Shown here: positions 7,002 to 25,019 of the stretch, in pieces
Layout of the letters: every line of letters starts with the position of its first letter
Numbering within the stretch: position 1 is the stretch's first letter
Source: a virus
Length of the DNA: 30,722 nucleotides
UHGV virus genome: UHGV-0024034
Direction: 5' to 3' (one strand)
Translations under genes and position numbers: made by a program
The notes under the pieces: generated by a model
The model's database searches: none
Seen by the model: the letters and a program-made list of their open reading frames with translations, nothing else
What the model was told of the DNA's origin: nothing

Positions 7002-7235
7002 ATGAGAATCAATATCACGTTGGATAAAGAGCAAAAAATTAGTCAGGCAACATTGGATGCACTTGAGGCTGAACTGTACCGCAATCTTCAACCTATTTAC
7101 CCAAAGACTGCTATCCGAATTCGCAAGGGCTCCGCTAATGGCGTTGAACTAAGCGGTTTGAAACTGGACGAAGATAAAAAACGAGTAATGGAAATCATGC
7201 AGCAGGTATGGGAGGACGATAGCTGGCTGCATTAA
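7002..7235 (+). CDS. DinI-family protein
   Basis: 77 aa, MRINITLDK...LDALEAELYRNLQ...EIMQQVWEDDSWLH; same length and pattern as E. coli DinI as I recall it (MRI.V...DAL..EL.R...I.Q..WE..D.W). Confidence 0.75.
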   Translation: MRINITLDKEQKISQATLDALEAELYRNLQPIYPKTAIRIRKGSANGVELSGLKLDEDKKRVMEIMQQVWEDDSWLH

Positions 7236-8532: not shown

Positions 8533-9537
8533 CTAATTTACATGTATGTAGAGTTCACCGTCGCCAGACCAATCGGGACACTCTAAAACAAGCCCAAACT
8601 GCTTGAATATTTCATCAATGATTATTGTTATCTCCCGAAAATCACCAAAACCTGTAATGTGCTGGTCATTAAACTTCCCATAAAGATTCTGAAAAGCAAT
8701 GCCTAATTCTGATAATTGATATCTTATCTTTGAGTTGGATAGTGTAAGGGATAGCTTTGGATCGTATTCTTTAATATTGATGTTTAGAGAATGGACATAA
8801 CCCATCGCATAAGCATAAGAGTTGATGATTAGCCTGATACGTTTTTTTACTTCAAGATACATGTCATTCAGAGAAATATTACCGTACTTATAACCCCAGA
8901 TGAGTTTTTCAATCTCGTCAGATACTTCATTTACAACAGTGTCAAGATTCTCTAAAAATAAATCGATAGTTTCTTGAGGGGCAGACCCCGAAGACATGTA
9001 ATTAGCGAGATATTCAGACCATGCACGCGTGGCTGAGATAAGAAGCGCGCTACCATACTCGTTGACTGTAAAGTTTTGGGCTAAGCATGTTAGTAAGTTT
9101 TTTTCATGTACGTGCACTAATTCATGGTGAATGCGATGGATGACTGCGAGGTATCCTTCTTCTTTCAGTTTTAAGAAGCTACCATCATTGAAAAGCTCAA
9201 CAAAAAAATCAATCGATAGCACAAGGGTATATTCTTCACATAGCCCATCATTGCCAATTTTTGTTACTAACTGCCCGACGGCTGCGCCCTGTTTGCTATT
9301 GGTAAATGAACTAGGGGATTTGTGTTGGTAAGAGGATGTTACCTTTTGAAGAGCTTCACTGAAGTTATAGGAAACAATCACGCATTTTAATTTGGAGATA
9401 TCAAGATTGAGATTTTTTGTTAAAGCTCGGATAGCTTCTAGTGTGAAATTACCGATATTATTTGCTTCTTGCTCAGTAGCGAAACCTTCGAGGGTTATTT
9501 TAAAATCAGTTTCCAAAATATTAATCTCCGCGCCCAT
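8533..9537 (-). CDS. AT-rich orphan protein with HExxH motif; candidate anti-phage or abortive-infection effector
   Basis: 334-aa ORF, markedly AT-rich by eye relative to the GC-rich flanks; HELVHVHE at residues 138..145 (nt 9126..9103); no resemblance to P2/186 core proteins that I recognise; lies between cos and portal gene Q. Confidence 0.6.
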   Translation of the reverse strand: MGAEINILETDFKITLEGFATEQEANNIGNFTLEAIRALTKNLNLDISKLKCVIVSYNFSEALQKVTSSYQHKSPSSFTNSKQGAAVGQLVTKIGNDGLCEEYTLVLSIDFFVELFNDGSFLKLKEEGYLAVIHRIHHELVHVHEKNLLTCLAQNFTVNEYGSALLISATRAWSEYLANYMSSGSAPQETIDLFLENLDTVVNEVSDEIEKLIWGYKYGNISLNDMYLEVKKRIRLIINSYAYAMGYVHSLNINIKEYDPKLSLTLSNSKIRYQLSELGIAFQNLYGKFNDQHITGFGDFREITIIIDEIFKQFGLVLECPDWSGDGELYIHVN

Positions 9538-19420: not shown

Positions 19421-20329
19421 ATGGCAAACGTTGACCTGAGTCAGTTACCCGTTCCCGATGTGGTTGAGGAACTGGACTATGAAACCATCCTTGCGGAACG
19501 CAAAGCGATACTGATTTCGCTCTATCCCGAAGACCAGCAGGAGGCCATTGCCCGGACGCTCGCACTTGAGTCAGAGCCGATTGTTAAGCTGCTGCAGGAA
19601 AACGCCTACCGTGAAATTATCTGGCGTCAGCGGGTGAACGAAGCCGCGCAGGCGGTAACGCTGGCCTATTCTGCCGGTAACGACCTCGACGTCGTGGCCG
19701 GGAACAACAATACCGAGCGCCTGACCATCACCCCGGCGGATGACACTACCATCCCGCCGACGCCTGCCGTTATGGAATCAGATACTGACCTGCGACTGCG
19801 CACGCAACAAGCGTTTGAGGGCTTGAGTGTGGCGGGGCCGGTCGGAGCATATGAGTATCATGGTCGCAGTGCCGACGGGCGGGTCGCTGACGTTTCGGTC
19901 GCCAGTCCGTCGCCAGCCTGCGTGACGATTACTGTGCTATCACGTGAGGGCAACGGCACCGCCAGCCCTGATTTACTGGCGATTGTTGATAAAGCGCTGA
20001 ATGCCGAAGATGTGCGCCCGGTGGCTGACCGGGTGACCGTCCAGTCAGCCGAGATTGTGCCGTACCAAATTGACGCGACGCTCTACGTTTACCCCGGCCC
20101 CGAGTCTGAGCCCATCAGGCAGGCATCAGAACAAAAGCTGCAGAGTTACATCAGCGCGCAGCACCGCCTCGGGCGTGATATCCGTCTGTCGGCCATTTAC
20201 GCGGCGCTGCATGTTGAGGGGGTGCAGCGTGTCGAACTGGCATCACCGCAGGCCGACATTGTGCTGAGTAAGTCGCAGGCGTCGAATTGTACTGAGTACC
20301 AGATAACTATCGGGGGCTCGGATGAGTGA
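19421..20329 (+). CDS. J: Baseplate protein gpJ
   Basis: 302 aa, same length as P2 gpJ. Confidence 0.85.
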   Translation: MANVDLSQLPVPDVVEELDYETILAERKAILISLYPEDQQEAIARTLALESEPIVKLLQENAYREIIWRQRVNEAAQAVTLAYSAGNDLDVVAGNNNTERLTITPADDTTIPPTPAVMESDTDLRLRTQQAFEGLSVAGPVGAYEYHGRSADGRVADVSVASPSPACVTITVLSREGNGTASPDLLAIVDKALNAEDVRPVADRVTVQSAEIVPYQIDATLYVYPGPESEPIRQASEQKLQSYISAQHRLGRDIRLSAIYAALHVEGVQRVELASPQADIVLSKSQASNCTEYQITIGGSDE

Positions 20330-20930
20330 CCGGCTATTACCCGTTGGCTCGTCGCCGCTGGAGGTTGCCGCCGCCGCTGCGTTCTCTGAGATTCAGCGCG
20401 TGCCGGTACCGCTGCGCACCCTGTGGAACTGGCGCACCTGCCCGGTAAAGCTGCTGCCGTATCTGGCGTGGGCGCTGTCGGTCGACAGGTGGGATGAGAA
20501 ATGGCCGGAGGCGACAAAGCGCAACGTCTGCGCGTCCTCGTTTTTCGTCCATCAGCACAAAGGCACCATCAGCGCATTGCGTCGGGTCGTCGAGCCGCTC
20601 GGCTTTCTGATTGAGGTGCGCGAGTGGTGGCAACTCGACGAGGAGCCAGGCACATTCCGCCTCGTTGTTGGCGTCCTCGACAGCGGCATCACTGACGAAA
20701 TGTATCAGGAGCTTGAGCGCCTGATTGAAGACGCCAAACCGGCAAGTCGCCACCTGACCGGGCTGGCTATCAGTCTGAGCTCGACCGGCGAACTGTATGT
20801 CGGCGCGGGATGCTATCACGGCGACGCGCTGACTGTTTACCCCTACACCCCCGAGGAGATTGTCGTCGGCGGTGAATATTACCCGGCCTCGGCCATCCAT
20901 TTGATTGATAACCTGAGAGTGAACGCATGA
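20322..20930 (+). CDS. I: Baseplate/tail formation protein gpI
   Basis: 202 aa; position of P2 gpI. Confidence 0.8.
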
Positions 20931-21886
20931 CCGCAAAATATTTTGCCATTCTGACCAATCAGGGCGCGGCGCGGCTGGCGAACGCGGCGGCACTCGGTAC
21001 CAAACTCAACCTGACGCAGATGGCCGTCGGTGATGCGAATGGTACGTTGCCGACCCCTGACCCGGCGCAGACGAAGCTCATTAACCAGAAACGCATCGCG
21101 CCGCTGAACCTGCTGACCGTTGACCCGGCCAATACCAGTCAGATTATCGCGGAACAGATTATTCCCGAGAATGAAGGTGGTTTCTGGATCCGCGAGATTG
21201 GTCTCTATGACGATGATGGTATTCTGATTGCCGTGGCGAACTGTCCGGAGACCTACAAGCCACAACTGCAGGAGGGAAGCGGTCGCACGCAGACCATTCG
21301 CATGATTCTGGTTGTGTCGAGCACATCGGCAATCACCCTGAAAATCGACCCGGCAGTCGTGCTGGCAACGCGCCAGTATGTCGACGACAAGATTATCGAG
21401 GTGAAAGGATATGCTGATGACCTGATGAAAAAACATGTTGAGGCCGCCAATCCACACAAGCAGTACCCGTTAATCGCTAATGCTCTGAAAGAAATGGTTG
21501 ACGCGGGACTGGCCGGCGACGTTCTTAAAAACCTTGGTTTGGGAGAAGCGGCTAAAAGGAATGTAGGGACAGGGGCGAATCAGATACCTGATATGGGTAG
21601 CTTCACGCTTTCTGTTTCAGGTACTGGATATCAAAAATTACCATCTGGTTTTATTCTTCAGTGGGGCTCAATCGGCGCTCCAGGCATTGCACAGGATGTG
21701 GTAACCCATTTCCCGATTGCATTTCCGAACAGATGTCTGCGTGTTTTGGTCTCACAAGACTACACACCAGATAGCGGGGCTGTTGGTTATATTGCCTGTG
21801 CAGGTTTTAGTCCCGACCCGGTTAAATTTATATCCAGAGCCAGTACTCCAGGTCTCGGCGCTTCATTTTTAGCGTTAGGCTGTTAA
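20927..21886 (+). CDS. H: Tail fibre protein gpH (conserved N-terminal domain plus variable C-terminal receptor-binding part)
   Basis: 319 aa; N-terminus [20 protein letters not shown]... is the conserved P2 H-type N-terminal domain; the C-terminal third is AT-richer; contains the hix-like crossover site. Confidence 0.85.
21522..21547 (+). promoter_or_regulatory. Invertase crossover site, left (hix/gix-like) TTCTTAAAAACC-TT-GGTTTGGGAGAA
   Basis: 26-bp site resembling my memory of hixL (TTCTTGAAAACCAAGGTTTTTGATAA); the inner half plus core is repeated in inverted orientation at 23418..23432. Confidence 0.65.
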
Positions 21887-21907
21887 TTTAGCTATATGGA
21901 ATGAGAA

Positions 21908-22348
21908 ATGAATTATATATATTCCGCGACTACAAACTCTTTCTATCCGTTAGAGATGAAAGAGGATTACACTCAAGCTGACTCATGGCCAGATGATGCT
22001 GTTGAAGTTGACGAGCAGGTGTATATTGAGTTTTCCGGATTACCGCCGAAAGGAAAAATCCGTATCGCTGGAGAAAATGGTTTTCCTGCATGGTCTGAAA
22101 TTCCACCACCAACACATGAGGAACAGATTGCTGCAGCCGAACTGGAAAAGCAGCAATTGATTAATCAGGCCAACGATTATATGAACAGTAAACAATGGCC
22201 TGGTAAAGCGGCTATTGGTCGTCTGAAAGGTGAGGAACTGGCGCAATATAATTTGTGGCTGGATTATCTGGACGCACTGGAACTGGTCGATACTTCCGGT
22301 GCGCCAGATATTGAATGGCCTACGCCTCCGGCAGTTCAGGCCAGATGA
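21908..22348 (+). CDS. G: Tail fibre assembly chaperone gpG (Tfa)
   Basis: 146 aa; sits where the fibre assembly chaperone lies in P2; C-terminus ...WPTPPAVQA resembles that of the inverted partner. Confidence 0.8.
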   Translation: MNYIYSATTNSFYPLEMKEDYTQADSWPDDAVEVDEQVYIEFSGLPPKGKIRIAGENGFPAWSEIPPPTHEEQIAAAELEKQQLINQANDYMNSKQWPGKAAIGRLKGEELAQYNLWLDYLDALELVDTSGAPDIEWPTPPAVQAR

Positions 22349-22922
22349 CATCCGGCGCGGTGCTGGTATCTGTTGCCGTCACCGCGTCAATGTAATCCAG
22401 CACAGCGTTAAGGCGGGTTGTTTCTGCCTGCGTCAGTTTACGTCCGGCCTGCAATTTCAGCTGAATCAGACTGATGGAGGCCATTGCAGTATCAATCAGC
22501 GACTGGCGCTGTGCTTCTGCTGCATCTACTGCTGCGCCGTGCTGTGCCTCGGTATCCGTCACCCATTTCTCACCATCCCATTTATCGTATGGCGTTAACG
22601 GGGCGATAGTGGTTGTATTTTCAGGGTAATCACCCGGAGCTGTGATTTCTTTTGATTCTCCTGTTTCAGTGCTATATACCGTTTCACCACGGTGGTCTGG
22701 CACATATACCCATGAGTTAAAATCTGCAGAACGGCAGATTGCATAACCAGCTTTATATGAGTCAGGAGCATCTAAACAGGAGCATGCCGGAATGCCGACA
22801 CCCACAGCAAGATATTCAGTTGATGTGAAAATATATTCCCGTGTTTCACCATCATAGTTATAAACAGTAATATTTCCTGCTTGGGTGGCGATAAATTCGT
22901 TATTTAATACGGCGTAATCCAT
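22320..22922 (-). CDS. Alternative tail fibre assembly chaperone (Tfa'), inverted orientation
   Basis: 200 aa; C-terminus ...DVIWPELPEA; overlaps G tail-to-tail by 29 bp, as U/U' do in the Mu G segment. Confidence 0.75.
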   Translation of the reverse strand: MDYAVLNNEFIATQAGNITVYNYDGETREYIFTSTEYLAVGVGIPACSCLDAPDSYKAGYAICRSADFNSWVYVPDHRGETVYSTETGESKEITAPGDYPENTTTIAPLTPYDKWDGEKWVTDTEAQHGAAVDAAEAQRQSLIDTAMASISLIQLKLQAGRKLTQAETTRLNAVLDYIDAVTATDTSTAPDVIWPELPEA

Positions 22923-23430
22923 TATGCAGCCCTCACGATATACGCAAATGCCAGGTTCCGTGGTCTGGTTTCTTTAATTAAAGAGGAGGCATCAGGTGAA
23001 CTCACTGATTCAGCACCATTTCTTCCACCAGTGGTATAAGTAAAAACTCTTTCACTGTTAGACCAGTAATCCACACCAACTGTTTTTGCTGATGAAAAAA
23101 TGGTTTCATCAGATATAACCTGTTCTATTCCATACGGGATATTAGTAACTGACCCCACTTTTGTAGGTATTCCATGATTATGAGAAATTACTGCATGCTC
23201 TTGATTCGTTAATAAAGTACGACCGCTATCCACTCCACGCCCGTCATCCCAGCCACGAATAAACTCACCACGTAAATCAGGCAATTTATTTGTCGGATAA
23301 GCCTTTGCCAGTTCCGGGTATTCTTCAGCAGAAAAAGCGGCACCGTTGCATTTCAGCCAGCCTGTTGGCGGAGTGGCGGAAGGCCACGGAACAGGCACGC
23401 CAACGGGTAATGCCGAACCTTCTCCCAAAC
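22922..23430 (-). CDS. Alternative tail-fibre C-terminal cassette (Hv'), no promoter or start codon of its own
   Basis: Phage tail collar motif PTGWLKCNGAAFSAEEYPELAKAY...LPDLRGEFIRG; reading frame is continuous with the H constant region across the shared GGTTTGGGAGAAG repeat only after inversion. Confidence 0.75.
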
Positions 23431-23444
23431 CAACCTTTTAGAAA
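23419..23444 (+). promoter_or_regulatory. Invertase crossover site, right (hix-like) TTCTCCCAAACC-AA-CCTTTTAGAAAA
   Basis: Inner half-site is the exact reverse complement of the left site's inner half; outer half-site is degenerate. Confidence 0.6.
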
Positions 23445-23499
23445 ATGCAGATATTCCGTTCAGTTGGCATGATCCCGACTTTTTACCGGGTTATTTCTC

Positions 23500-23742
23500 A
23501 TGTTTATCGGTTATGTACGTGTATCAACAAATGACCAGAACACCGCATTACAGCGAAATGAACTGGAGTGCGCAGGATGCGAGCTGATTTTCGAAGATAA
23601 AATCAGCGGCAAAACATCAGACTGGCCGGGGCTAAAGAGGTTACTCAGAACCTTGTCAGAGGGCGATACGCTTGTGGTCTGGAAACTGGATCGCCTCGGG
23701 TATCTCAACGCTATACAAAAAATTTCCCGCATCCGTTGCTGA
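23500..23742 (+). pseudogene. Truncated serine DNA invertase (Hin/Gin/Pin/Cin family)
   Basis: MFIGYVRVSTNDQNTALQRN...VVWKLDRLG matches the invertase catalytic N-terminus through about residue 66, then diverges and stops at 80 aa; the C-terminal HTH domain is absent. Confidence 0.8.
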
Positions 23743-23840: not shown

Positions 23841-25019
23841 ATGAGTGATTTTCACCACGGCGTGCAGGTGCTTGAGATTAACGACGGCACCCGCGTCATT
23901 TCCACTGTTGCAACCGCAATCGTCGGCATGGTCTGTACAGCCAGCGATGCGGATGCGGCAACCTTTCCCCTCAACGAGCCGGTACTGATTACCAATGTGC
24001 AAAGCGCCATTGCGAAAGCCGGTAAAAAAGGCACGCTGGCCGCGTCCCTGCAGGCCATCGCCGACCAGTCAAAACCTGTCACAGTTGTCGTGCGTGTTGC
24101 CGAAGGTACCGGAGAAGACGCCGAAGCGCAGACCATTTCCAATATCATCGGCGGCACGGATGAGAGCGGTAAATATACCGGCATCAAGGCGCTGTTGACT
24201 GCCGAAGCAGTCACCGGCGTTAAGCCGCGCATTCTCGGCGTGCCGGGTCTCGATACCAAAGAGGTCGCAGTCGCACTTGCTTCGGTCTGTATCAGCCTGC
24301 GCGCCTTTGGCTATATCAGCGCATGGGGTTGTAAAACCATTTCCGAGGCGATGGCCTATCGCGAGAATTTCAGCCAGCGCGAGCTGATGGTCATCTGGCC
24401 TGATTTCCTTGCATGGGATACCACCACAAACGCCACCGCACCGGCATACGCAACTGCGCGCGCACTCGGCCTGCGTGCCTATATCGACCAGACCGTCGGC
24501 TGGCACAAAACCCTGTCTAACATCGGCGTGCAGGGTGTTACCGGCATCAGTGCGTCAGTGTTTTGGGATTTGCAGGCATCCGGCACCGATGCTGATCTGC
24601 TCAACGAGGCCGGGCTCACAACACTGGTGCGTAAGGATGGCTTCCGCTTTTGGGGTAACCGCACCTGCTCTGATGACCCGCTTTTCCTGTTTGAGAACTA
24701 CACCCGCACCGCGCAGGTGCTGGCCGACACGATGGCCGAGGCGCACATGTGGGCGGTCGATAAGCCCATCACCGCATCACTTATCCGTGACATTGTCGAC
24801 GGCATTAACGCCAAATTCCGCGAGCTGAAATCAAACGGCTACATCGTGGACGGTGAATGCTGGTTTGACGAGGAATCGAACGATAAGGAAACCCTCAAGG
24901 CAGGGAAACTGTATATCGACTACGACTATACACCGGTTCCACCACTGGAAAGCCTGACCCTGCGCCAGCGTATCACCGATAAATATCTGGTAAATCTGGC
25001 CGAATCGGTCAACAGCTAA
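23841..25019 (+). CDS. FI: Tail sheath protein FI
   Basis: 392 aa from MSDFHHGVQVLEINDGTRVIS...; near-collinear with P2 FI; the ORF-track start at 23814 is an overextension. Confidence 0.95.
   Translation: MSDFHHGVQVLEINDGTRVISTVATAIVGMVCTASDADAATFPLNEPVLITNVQSAIAKAGKKGTLAASLQAIADQSKPVTVVVRVAEGTGEDAEAQTISNIIGGTDESGKYTGIKALLTAEAVTGVKPRILGVPGLDTKEVAVALASVCISLRAFGYISAWGCKTISEAMAYRENFSQRELMVIWPDFLAWDTTTNATAPAYATARALGLRAYIDQTVGWHKTLSNIGVQGVTGISASVFWDLQASGTDADLLNEAGLTTLVRKDGFRFWGNRTCSDDPLFLFENYTRTAQVLADTMAEAHMWAVDKPITASLIRDIVDGINAKFRELKSNGYIVDGECWFDEESNDKETLKAGKLYIDYDYTPVPPLESLTLRQRITDKYLVNLAESVNS

What the first reader, a model, noticed from the sequence alone, without database searches (positions are those of the whole stretch)
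20927..23430. Short chimeric tail fibre with two unrelated alternative receptor-binding domains
Seen: gene H is only 319 aa, against about 670 aa that I recall for P2 H. Its conserved N-terminal part is GC-rich, while the variable part after the crossover site is AT-richer. The expressed C-terminus lacks the tail collar motif, whereas the silent inverted cassette carries a classic one (PTGWLKCNG...LPDLRGEFIRG). Inference: mosaic acquisition of receptor-binding modules from different phage lineages.
Basis: partly seen in the sequence, partly recalled or inferred. Interest (0 to 1): 0.4.

Follow-up and report, generated by a model that had tools for sequence, protein, structure and literature searches.

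The report
Invertible two-tip tail fibre, dead invertase
This is an ordinary, already well-documented phage host-range switch: a P2-type E. coli prophage whose short tail-fibre gene can carry either of two unrelated receptor-binding tips by DNA inversion. Its own inversion enzyme gene is broken.

Summary
H (20927-21886) is 319 aa against 669 aa for P2 H. It ends in a Gp53-like_C domain (PF21882), the family of the R-pyocin "foot" lectin domain. The inverted cassette (22922-23419, minus strand) would give a 372-aa H' with a Collar domain (PF07484, as in T4 gp37/gp12). The two tips show no detectable similarity to each other or to the P2 H C-terminus. Each has its own chaperone gene, and two 26-bp crossover sites flank the segment.

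None of this is new. E. coli K-12 e14 carries the same module with the same pairing (StfP is Gp53-like, StfE is Collar). The exact 319-aa protein is indexed in 108 blocks of the public assembly collection. Inversion in P2-like E. coli prophages has been shown experimentally.

The fibre is short because it has no copy of a ~74-aa shaft unit; relatives have one (392 aa) or two (466 aa).

Sister prophages with the same dead invertase occur in both orientations, precisely flipped at the sites. This points to flipping by an invertase supplied in trans, but is not proof.

Verdict: real, ordinary, already known.

The parts
20322..20930 (+). gpI-type baseplate/tail protein (202 aa) directly upstream of H. 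It is 66% identical to P2 and PsP3 I and has a 28-aa C-terminal extension.
   Evidence: PF09684 Tail_P2_I; BLASTP against P2 and PsP3 I
20927..21886 (+). Expressed tail-fibre gene H (319 aa): constant part fused to the Gp53-like tip
   Evidence: ORF; Pfam; identical protein P0001 and near-identical P0002 (one substitution) in E. coli assemblies
20927..21376 (+). H N-terminal domain (aa 1-150), PF12571, 57.1% GC. By analogy with P2 H this is the baseplate-attachment domain (inferred).
   Evidence: Pfam 210.9 bits; 47-48% identical to P2 and PsP3 H; AF2 pLDDT mostly 72-92
21377..21547 (+). Minimal shaft/linker of the constant part (aa 151-207), 46.8% GC. It has zero copies of the ~74-aa shaft unit present once or twice in 392-aa and 466-aa relatives.
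   Evidence: Alignment with P0032, P0036 and P0048; GC; predicted helical but at low confidence
21522..21547 (+). Left 26-bp crossover site inside H: TTCTTAAAAACC TT GGTTTGGGAGAA. It encodes ..LKNLGLGE.
   Evidence: right half-site identical to e14's
21548..21886 (+). Expressed variable C-terminus (aa 208-319) with the Gp53-like_C domain, the family of the R-pyocin 'foot' lectin domain
   Evidence: PF21882, 53.7 bits; PDB sequence hits 9zd7, 4mtm, 6cxb, 6cl5; Foldseek hits 6ct8, 6cl6, 4mtm, 6cxb
21908..22348 (+). Tail-fibre assembly chaperone for the Gp53-like tip (146 aa); 60% identical to e14 TfaP
   Evidence: PF02413; BLASTP
22320..22922 (-). Silent tail-fibre assembly chaperone for the Collar tip (200 aa); 90% identical to e14 TfaE. 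It overlaps the other chaperone gene convergently by 29 bp, as in e14.
   Evidence: PF02413; BLASTP; e14 annotation
22922..23419 (-). Silent alternative C-terminus Hv' (no start codon of its own). It has a Collar domain, one HxH motif and a variable head; 58% identical to e14 StfE.
   Evidence: In-silico inversion gives a 372-aa H'; PF07484; PDB hits 9cuy, 2xgf, 1ocy; the same tip is expressed as 372-, 445- and 547-aa proteins elsewhere
23420..23445 (-). Right 26-bp crossover site, inverted: TTTTCTAAAAGG TT GGTTTGGGAGAA on the minus strand
23500..23742 (+). Remnant of a Din-family serine invertase (80-aa ORF). An internal out-of-frame deletion of ~309 bp, with its joint near 23700, removes the rest of the catalytic domain and most of the HTH.
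   Evidence: PF00239 matches residues 3-67 only; alignment to the intact 192-aa recombinase of PCN033 and frame analysis; same deletion in 11 related loci (L001, L002, L008-L015; L017)

Best explanation
The region is a Mu-G / P1-C / e14-P type invertible host-range module in the tail-fibre position of a 186/PsP3-like (Peduoviridae) E. coli prophage.

Fibre layout: H has three modules. (1) An N-terminal PF12571 domain, taken to dock on the baseplate. (2) A minimal shaft with no ~74-aa repeat unit. (3) A receptor-binding tip encoded inside the invertible segment.

Present orientation: the tip is a Gp53-like jelly-roll domain of the kind that forms the foot of R-type pyocin fibres. It probably binds a sugar of LPS. 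The 146-aa chaperone downstream would fold it.

Flipped orientation: inversion between the two 26-bp sites would fuse the same constant part to a T4 gp37/gp12-like collar + HxH + variable head tip. It would also bring the 200-aa TfaE-like chaperone into the transcribed strand.

The enzyme: a Din-family serine invertase normally does the flipping. Here that gene has a ~309-bp internal deletion, so the phage cannot flip on its own. The sites are intact, and sister prophages with the same dead gene are found in both orientations. Flipping most likely depends on a related invertase supplied in trans by another element in the same cell.

Shown: gene anatomy, domain families, sites, the deletion, and both orientations among relatives. 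Inferred: receptor type, baseplate docking, chaperone pairing and trans-complementation.
For: - Anatomy and domains.
- Sites.
- Same architecture with an intact 192-aa recombinase (Resolvase + HTH_7) in E. coli PCN033.
- e14 has the same domain pairing, chaperones 60% and 90% identical, PinE 85% identical to the remnant, and an identical right half-site.
- Tip homologies to solved structures.
- The foot domain of R pyocins is proposed as their sugar-binding domain: PMC6363177.
- The two chaperones share only their C-terminal ~70 aa (37.5% identical). This fits the reported organisation of Tfa proteins, with a variable fibre-binding N-domain and a conserved C-domain: PMC9608196.
- Invertase deletion. 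It is shared by L001, L002 and L008-L015.
- L008 and L014 have 100% identical flanks. Their 1941-bp interior is 99.9% identical but inverted exactly at the sites, and both carry the dead invertase.
- CP062811 has the Gp53 cassette silent next to the dead invertase and expresses a 355-aa collar H'.
- This exact constant region is fused to at least five different collar sequences in other genomes.
- Inversion in P2-like prophages of EPEC E2348/69 was shown experimentally: PMC4272514.
Against: - No read-level data exist for this DNA, so flipping of this particular copy is not shown.
- The fusion of this exact constant region to this exact collar allele was not among the 120 listed hits. The best full-length match, P0148, is 86% identical.
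- The host genome is not in the window, so a trans-acting invertase cannot be demonstrated.
- Opposite orientations in sister prophages could also come from recombination with another prophage, or could predate the spread of the deletion.
- The monomer AF2 model of the collar-type fibre was poor (mean pLDDT 51.9; C-terminal part mostly below 50). Its fold rests on sequence homology only.
- The Fis-dependent enhancer was not examined.
Confidence: 0.85

Rival explanations
1. One reading: this phage built a chimeric fibre by acquiring two receptor-binding modules separately from two different phage lineages.
For: The two tips belong to different families, and each is spread over many unrelated phages. 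The GC of the module (46%) differs from the rest of the tail operon (57-61%).
Against: The whole segment is one transferable unit: both tips, both chaperones and the sites. It is 97-100% identical in an e14-like remnant of E. coli A14. The Gp53-like + Collar pairing is already present in K-12 e14. GC is uniformly low over the whole module, including the shaft and invertase. That fits one donor unit rather than two.
Confidence: 0.1
2. Decay: the locus is a degenerating remnant. H is a truncated, non-functional fibre, the switch is frozen for good, and the silent cassette is a fossil.
For: The invertase is a deletion pseudogene. H is the shortest member of its series. Many Gp53-like cassettes in databases are annotated as partial.
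Against: All four genes of the module have intact reading frames. The exact 319-aa protein is indexed in 108 blocks of the assembly collection. A second 319-aa lineage, 89% identical, sits next to an intact invertase in PCN033. Both orientations occur among prophages with the dead invertase. The near-identical genome vB_EcoM-613R3 is deposited as a phage with a 320-aa H.
Confidence: 0.12
3. The opposite orientations seen in sister prophages do not come from trans-acting invertases. They come from homologous recombination with other prophages that carry the segment in the other orientation, or from inversions that predate the invertase deletion.
For: Cassette content between the sites differs widely among prophages with near-identical flanks, which shows frequent recombinational replacement. 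E. coli genomes hold up to 9 related loci.
Against: L008 and L014 differ only by a precise inversion bounded by the two sites: 2 mismatches in 1941 bp and 100% identical flanks. That is the signature of site-specific inversion after the deletion. The same deletion is present throughout the lineage. Cross-complementation among Gin, Cin, Pin and Hin is established knowledge, and two invertases acting on one Salmonella segment are cited in PMC4272514.
Confidence: 0.25

Closest known systems
Invertible P segment of the cryptic prophage e14 of E. coli K-12 (stfP-tfaP / tfaE-stfE / pinE)
   Same: Same gene order, and the same 29-bp convergent overlap of the two chaperone genes. Same domain pairing: StfP is Gp53-like_C and StfE is Collar. 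TfaE is 90%, TfaP 60% and StfE 58% identical. PinE is 85% identical to the first 67 residues of the remnant. The right half-site GGTTTGGGAGAA is identical.
   Different: e14 is a lambdoid remnant with an intact pinE, and its constant part is not a PF12571 P2-type N-terminus. Here the module sits in a complete P2-type tail operon and the invertase is internally deleted.
Invertible tail-fibre loci of P2-like prophages of E. coli, e.g. EPEC E2348/69 (PMC4272514), E. coli PCN033, and phages pro483 and vB_EcoM-613R3
   Same: PF12571 constant part, alternative C-termini, paired chaperones, and an invertase between the fibre genes and FI. PCN033 has the same 319-aa architecture. A DNA invertase with inverted neighbouring genes at this P2 hotspot is also noted in bioRxiv 10.1101/2024.10.15.618418.
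   Different: PCN033 keeps an intact 192-aa recombinase. One EPEC locus is a three-site shufflon. The window's lineage shares one specific invertase deletion.
Phage Mu G segment (S/U, S'/U', Gin) and phage P1 C segment (Cin)
   Same: Same principle: a crossover site inside the fibre gene, two alternative tips each with its chaperone, and a Din-family serine invertase next to the segment (established knowledge; cited).
   Different: Different constant parts and longer fibres. Their invertases are functional. No sequence comparison with Mu or P1 was run here.
P2 gpH / PsP3 gpH
   Same: Same N-terminal PF12571 domain (47-48% identity) and the same position after gpI.
   Different: P2 and PsP3 H are 669 and 675 aa, with PF03406 repeats and a different C-terminus. 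They have a single chaperone G and no invertible segment.
R1/R2 pyocin fibre foot domain and Acinetobacter phage AP22 gp53 (PDB 6cxb, 6ct8, 6cl5, 6cl6, 4mtm)
   Same: The expressed tip matches by sequence (E = 0.004-0.03) and by predicted fold (Foldseek E = 2e-4 to 1e-3, probability 0.96-1.0).
   Different: Only the last ~85-110 residues correspond. Pyocin fibres are ~690-700 aa with head and shaft domains that are absent here.
T4 gp37 tip and T4 gp12 (PDB 2xgf, 1ocy) and the 'short tail fiber' of 9cuy
   Same: The silent tip matches their collar domain (E = 1.8e-14, 4e-4 and 3.6e-16). Its HNH motif aligns with an HSH of gp37.
   Different: It has a single HxH and a ~85-aa variable head instead of the long gp37 needle. 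The fold was not confirmed, because the model was poor.

Membership tests
Din-family (Gin/Cin/Pin/Hin) invertible tail-fibre segment | Two inverted ~26-bp crossover sites with a shared 2-bp core | tested here: met
   Sites at 21522-21547 and 23420-23445. Both have a TT core and the half-site GGTTTGGGAGAA, which is identical in e14. The pattern occurs 2 times against 0 expected.
Din-family (Gin/Cin/Pin/Hin) invertible tail-fibre segment | One site lies inside the fibre gene, so both orientations give an in-frame fibre with a common N-terminus | tested here: met
   H is 319 aa and in-silico H' is 372 aa. They are identical to residue 207.
Din-family (Gin/Cin/Pin/Hin) invertible tail-fibre segment | Each alternative tip is followed by its own assembly chaperone, and the two sets are convergent | tested here: met
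   Two PF02413 genes, 21908-22348 (+) and 22320-22922 (-).
Din-family (Gin/Cin/Pin/Hin) invertible tail-fibre segment | An adjacent functional serine invertase (Resolvase catalytic domain + HTH_7) | tested here: not met
   Only an 80-aa ORF matching positions 2-76 of the 145-position Resolvase profile, with no HTH_7. There is a ~309-bp out-of-frame internal deletion relative to the 192-aa PCN033 enzyme.
Din-family (Gin/Cin/Pin/Hin) invertible tail-fibre segment | The segment actually inverts | tested here: inconclusive
   Not testable on this single molecule. Sister prophages with the same dead invertase occur in both orientations, with breakpoints exactly at the sites.
Din-family (Gin/Cin/Pin/Hin) invertible tail-fibre segment | A Fis-dependent recombinational enhancer in the 5' part of the invertase gene | not tested
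   The first ~200 bp of the gene are retained. No enhancer analysis was done.
P2 gpH-type tail fibre | N-terminal PF12571 domain, with the gene placed after gpI in a P2-type tail operon | tested here: met
   210.9 bits. gpI (PF09684) is upstream and the FI sheath gene follows the module.
P2 gpH-type tail fibre | Shaft with PF03406 fibre repeats and a P2 H-like C-terminal region | tested here: not met
   No PF03406 or PF21446 hit in H or H'. BLASTP of the tips against P2 or PsP3 H gives nothing better than E = 0.004.
Gp53-like_C (PF21882) / R-pyocin foot lectin domain | Sequence above the Pfam gathering score, and a jelly-roll foot fold | tested here: met
   53.7 bits against 24.9. AF2 C-domain pLDDT is mostly 73-82, with a dip to 56-60 at residues 281-300. 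Foldseek hits 6ct8, 6cl6, 4mtm and 6cxb.
Gp53-like_C (PF21882) / R-pyocin foot lectin domain | Binds a surface polysaccharide through its distal loops | not testable with these tools
   Inferred from PMC6363177.
Phage tail Collar domain (PF07484) tip, T4 gp37/gp12-like | Collar domain above the gathering score, homologous to solved collar domains | tested here: met
   56.3 bits against 24. Hits to 9cuy (3.6e-16), 2xgf (1.8e-14) and 1ocy (4e-4).
Phage tail Collar domain (PF07484) tip, T4 gp37/gp12-like | HxH metal site on the three-fold axis, and an intertwined trimeric head | tested here: inconclusive
   HNH aligns with an HSH of gp37. H-x-H is present in the consensus of 36 homologues. The monomer model has low confidence.

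The most novel reading that the evidence does not exclude
An 'orphan' host-range switch. A widespread lineage of P2-type E. coli prophages has lost its own invertase but keeps intact crossover sites and two intact tip/chaperone sets. It goes on flipping by borrowing a Din-family invertase from another resident element such as e14 Pin or other prophages. Which tip its virions carry would then depend on the mobile elements of the host cell.
Probability: 0.45. Interest if true: 0.35.

Novelty: already known. Interest (0 to 1): 0.15.

Why it matters
It matters little as a discovery. Invertible two-tip tail fibres have been textbook knowledge since Mu, P1 and e14. They are documented in P2-like E. 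coli prophages, and this exact protein is already in public databases.

Three points have practical value:
- The 0 / 1 / 2-unit shaft series, plus a constant part seen with at least six different tips, is a natural catalogue of tolerated fusions at the LGLGE joint. That is useful for retargeting P2/P4 particles or tailocins.
- The lineage with a dead invertase but both orientations is a convenient natural system for measuring trans-acting inversion between co-resident prophages.
- Annotation pipelines list the silent cassettes as separate 'phage tail protein' or 'gp53-like' genes, which is misleading.

Tried and rejected
- Direct BLASTP of the two tips against each other and against P2 and PsP3 H gave nothing significant. 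The best was E = 0.004, 26% over 88 aa, for the collar tip against P2 H 474-556, which I treated as noise.
- The AlphaFold2 monomer model of the collar-type fibre (P0148, 372 aa) was unusable: mean pLDDT 51.9 and the tip mostly below 50. No fold search was run on it.
- The model of H was usable only for the two end domains. The shaft helices are low confidence.
- No PDB sequence match was found for the N-terminal domain at E <= 1. Foldseek gave only a weak partial match to a Haloferax virus tail protein.
- I looked for the exact flipped product (this constant part + this collar allele) in the protein collection. It was not among the listed hits; the best full-length match was 86% identical.
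- The paper on tail-engineered P2 (PMC9942202) and the global P2-like virus survey (PMC13100340) say nothing on inversion in P2-like phages.
- Two literature searches failed on a term that was too short.
- I considered that H might be a truncation artefact and rejected it. The protein is conserved and there is a clean 0/1/2-unit series.
- I did not use the search of protein representatives, the metagenome or genome scans, or the RNA tools. The question was answered without them.
Full report
**Context.** The 30.7-kb window is an integrated 186/PsP3-like (Eganvirus-type, Peduoviridae) prophage of E. coli. Bases 1-20900 are 96% identical to Escherichia phage vB_EcoM-613R3 and 87-89% identical to Salmonella phages PsP3, SW9 and SEN1. 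An integrase and a CI-type repressor lie at the left end and gpD near the right end. The finding sits in the tail operon between gpI (20322-20930) and the sheath gene FI, which starts at 23842.

**Observation check.** H is an intact 319-aa ORF at 20927-21886. P2 H is 669 aa and PsP3 H is 675 aa.
- Pfam finds PF12571 at residues 1-150 and PF21882 (Gp53-like_C) at 237-319, with no Collar domain.
- A 21-nt inverted repeat (19 of 21 complementary) links 21528-21548 with 23419-23439.
- Extended to the usual 26 bp, the sites are TTCTTAAAAACC-TT-GGTTTGGGAGAA (21522-21547) and TTTTCTAAAAGG-TT-GGTTTGGGAGAA (23420-23445, minus strand).
- The 19-nt core pattern occurs exactly twice in the window and never in 100 shuffles.
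- In-silico inversion gives an in-frame 372-aa H' that diverges from H at residue 208 and carries PF07484 (Collar) at 214-261.
- GC is 57.1% in the N-terminal domain and 47.5% in the variable part. The drop already begins in the shaft (aa 151-207, 46.8%) and continues through the whole segment (46.4%) and the invertase remnant (47.3%).

All elements of the observation are real.

**The two tips.**
- *Expressed tip.* It matches a short tail fibre gp92 (9zd7), Acinetobacter phage AP22 gp53 (4mtm) and R1 pyocin fibres (6cxb, 6cl5) by sequence. The AF2 model has mean pLDDT 69.5, with the C-domain mostly 73-82. Its C-domain hits R2/R1 pyocin fibres and AP22 gp53 by Foldseek, E = 2e-4 to 1e-3. In R pyocins this 'foot' is a jelly-roll lectin-like domain proposed to bind LPS sugars (PMC6363177).
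- *Silent tip.* It matches a short tail fibre (9cuy, E = 3.6e-16), the T4 gp37 tip (2xgf, 1.8e-14) and T4 gp12 (1ocy). Its HNH aligns with an HSH of gp37. Its monomer model was too poor to use.
- *Relationship.* BLASTP finds no similarity between the two tips (E = 1.1) or between either tip and P2 or PsP3 H. P2 H has PF03406 repeats and PF21446 instead.
- *Distribution.* Each tip type occurs in very different phages. The Gp53-like type is found in P2-likes, Shigella SfI/II/IV/V, and Ralstonia, Vibrio and Pseudomonas phages. The Collar type is found in lambda orf-314, T4-likes, cyanophages and Ralstonia and Aeromonas phages.

**The chaperones.** Each tip is followed by a PF02413 chaperone gene: 146 aa on the plus strand and 200 aa on the minus strand. 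The two share only their C-terminal ~70 residues (37.5% identity). This fits the reported two-domain organisation of Tfa proteins, with a variable fibre-binding N-domain and a conserved C-domain (PMC9608196). That each chaperone serves its own tip is an inference from this.

**The pair is a ready-made module.**
- From the crossover site onward the segment is 97-100% identical to an e14-like remnant next to pinE in E. coli A14.
- In K-12 e14 the classical P segment has the same order, stfP-tfaP / tfaE-stfE / pinE. StfP scores as Gp53-like_C and StfE as Collar.
- TfaE is 90% identical to the window's 200-aa chaperone and TfaP 60% to the 146-aa one. PinE is 85% identical to the invertase remnant. 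The right half-site and the 29-bp convergent overlap of the chaperone genes are the same.
- So 'mosaic' is right, but 'acquired from different lineages by this phage' is not. The unit of exchange is the whole invertible module, probably together with the shaft and invertase, given the uniform low GC.

**Why the fibre is short.**
- Proteins with the same tips and a near-identical N-terminal domain come in lengths of 319, 368, 392 and 466 aa (Gp53-like tip) and 372, 445 and 547 aa (Collar tip).
- The alignment shows that the 392-aa and 466-aa forms contain one and two copies of a ~74-aa shaft unit. The two copies are 44/74 identical to each other. The window's H has none.
- The 319-aa form is not rare. 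An identical protein (P0001) and one differing by a single substitution (P0002) are in E. coli assemblies, and P0002 alone is indexed in 108 blocks of the assembly collection. A second 319-aa lineage, 89% identical, is on 106 contigs. PCN033 has the full architecture with a 319-aa H.
- The window's exact constant part is also found fused to at least five other collar sequences, of 355-381 aa. In these the collar (~65 aa) and the last ~12 residues are conserved and the middle ~85 residues are hypervariable.

The ORF at 23500-23742 is only 80 aa and matches only the first half of the Resolvase domain.
- Alignment with the intact 192-aa recombinase of PCN033 shows an internal deletion of ~309 bp. 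It joins ..LDRLG to ..ISTLYKKFPA out of frame near 23700. It removes the rest of the catalytic domain and most of the HTH.
- The same deletion, at 98-99% identity, is present in vB_EcoM-613R3 and strains 40EC and DETEC-S565. It is also in all seven loci retrieved through proteins P0002 and P0191 and in Res13-Sevr-PER07-33.
- RefSeq annotates the remnant there as a frameshifted, incomplete recombinase.

**Does the switch still work?**
- DETEC-S565 (L008) and an ENA contig (L014) have 100% identical flanks. Their 1941-bp interior is 99.9% identical but inverted, with breakpoints exactly at the two sites. Both have the dead invertase.
- Strain Res13-Sevr-PER07-33 has the Gp53-like cassette silent beside the dead invertase and expresses a 355-aa collar fibre.
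- E. coli genomes contain up to 9 related loci. Strain EC1 carries both a dead-invertase prophage and a second locus whose match stops at the deletion joint, as expected for an intact gene.
- Cross-complementation among Gin, Cin, Pin and Hin is established knowledge.
- I therefore consider flipping in trans the most likely explanation (about 0.5-0.6). The rivals are recombinational replacement and inversion before the deletion spread.
- For the window itself nothing can be said. The host is not in the window and there are no reads.

**Comparison with what is known, and novelty.** Inversion-driven alternation of fibre tips has been known since Mu G, P1 C and e14 P.
- It has been shown by sequencing and PCR for P2-like prophages of EPEC E2348/69, including a three-tip shufflon (PMC4272514).
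- A DNA invertase with inverted neighbouring genes is reported as frequent at this P2 hotspot (bioRxiv 10.1101/2024.10.15.618418).
- The locus meets every structural criterion of a Din-type invertible fibre segment except a functional resident invertase.
- It is a P2 gpH-type fibre only in its N-terminal domain.

It is therefore already known in kind and in sequence. The interest is low (0.15). The only mildly novel angle is the invertase-less but apparently still flipping lineage.

Noticed in passing
window 23500-23742 (deletion joint near 23700): The invertase next to the invertible segment is a pseudogene. A ~309-bp out-of-frame internal deletion leaves 67 native residues. The same deletion is shared by a whole lineage of E. 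coli prophages, including phage vB_EcoM-613R3.
   Followed up: yes
L008 (NZ_CP116088 1992507-1999464) vs L014 (ERZ28528760 contig); L017 (NZ_CP062811 1244890-1252427): Sister prophages with the dead invertase occur in both orientations. One pair differs only by a precise inversion between the two 26-bp sites, with 100% identical flanks and 2 mismatches in 1941 bp. This suggests flipping by an invertase supplied in trans.
   Followed up: partly
window 21377-21547; proteins P0032, P0036, P0048: Shaft length in this fibre family varies by copy number of a ~74-aa unit: 0, 1 or 2 copies give 319, 392 or 466 aa, and a partial unit gives 368 aa. The window has the zero-copy form.
   Followed up: yes
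window 22922-23419 (-); proteins P0175, P0176, P0178, P0191, P0217: Collar-type tips share a conserved ~65-aa collar and a conserved last ~12 residues (ETRPRN[IL][AS]F[NA][YF]IVRAA). Between these lies a hypervariable ~85-aa insert, usually with one HxH motif. The same constant part is seen with at least five such sequences.
   Followed up: partly
window 20322-20930 and about 20765: gpI is only 66% identical to P2 and PsP3 gpI and has a 28-aa C-terminal extension. High nucleotide similarity to PsP3-like phages ends at about 20765, inside gpI. The gpI C-terminus and the H N-terminal domain (47% identical to PsP3 H) may therefore be exchanged as one unit.
   Followed up: partly
window 8533-9537 (-): A 334-aa ORF lies between the DinI-like gene (7002-7235) and the portal gene, in the position of the P2 old/tin cargo hotspot. 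It has no Pfam hit and no PADLOC hit, so it is an uncharacterised cargo gene.
   Followed up: partly
window 22320-22348 and 22920-22924: The two chaperone genes overlap convergently by 29 bp, exactly as tfaP and tfaE do in e14. The stop codon of the silent tip overlaps the start codon of its chaperone by one base (TAATG), which suggests translational coupling.
   Followed up: no
one search hits (P0249-P0329): Hundreds of ~130-aa 'gp53-like domain-containing' or 'hypothetical' proteins in E. coli annotations are most likely silent Gp53-like cassettes called as stand-alone genes. This is an annotation artefact of invertible fibre segments.
   Followed up: no
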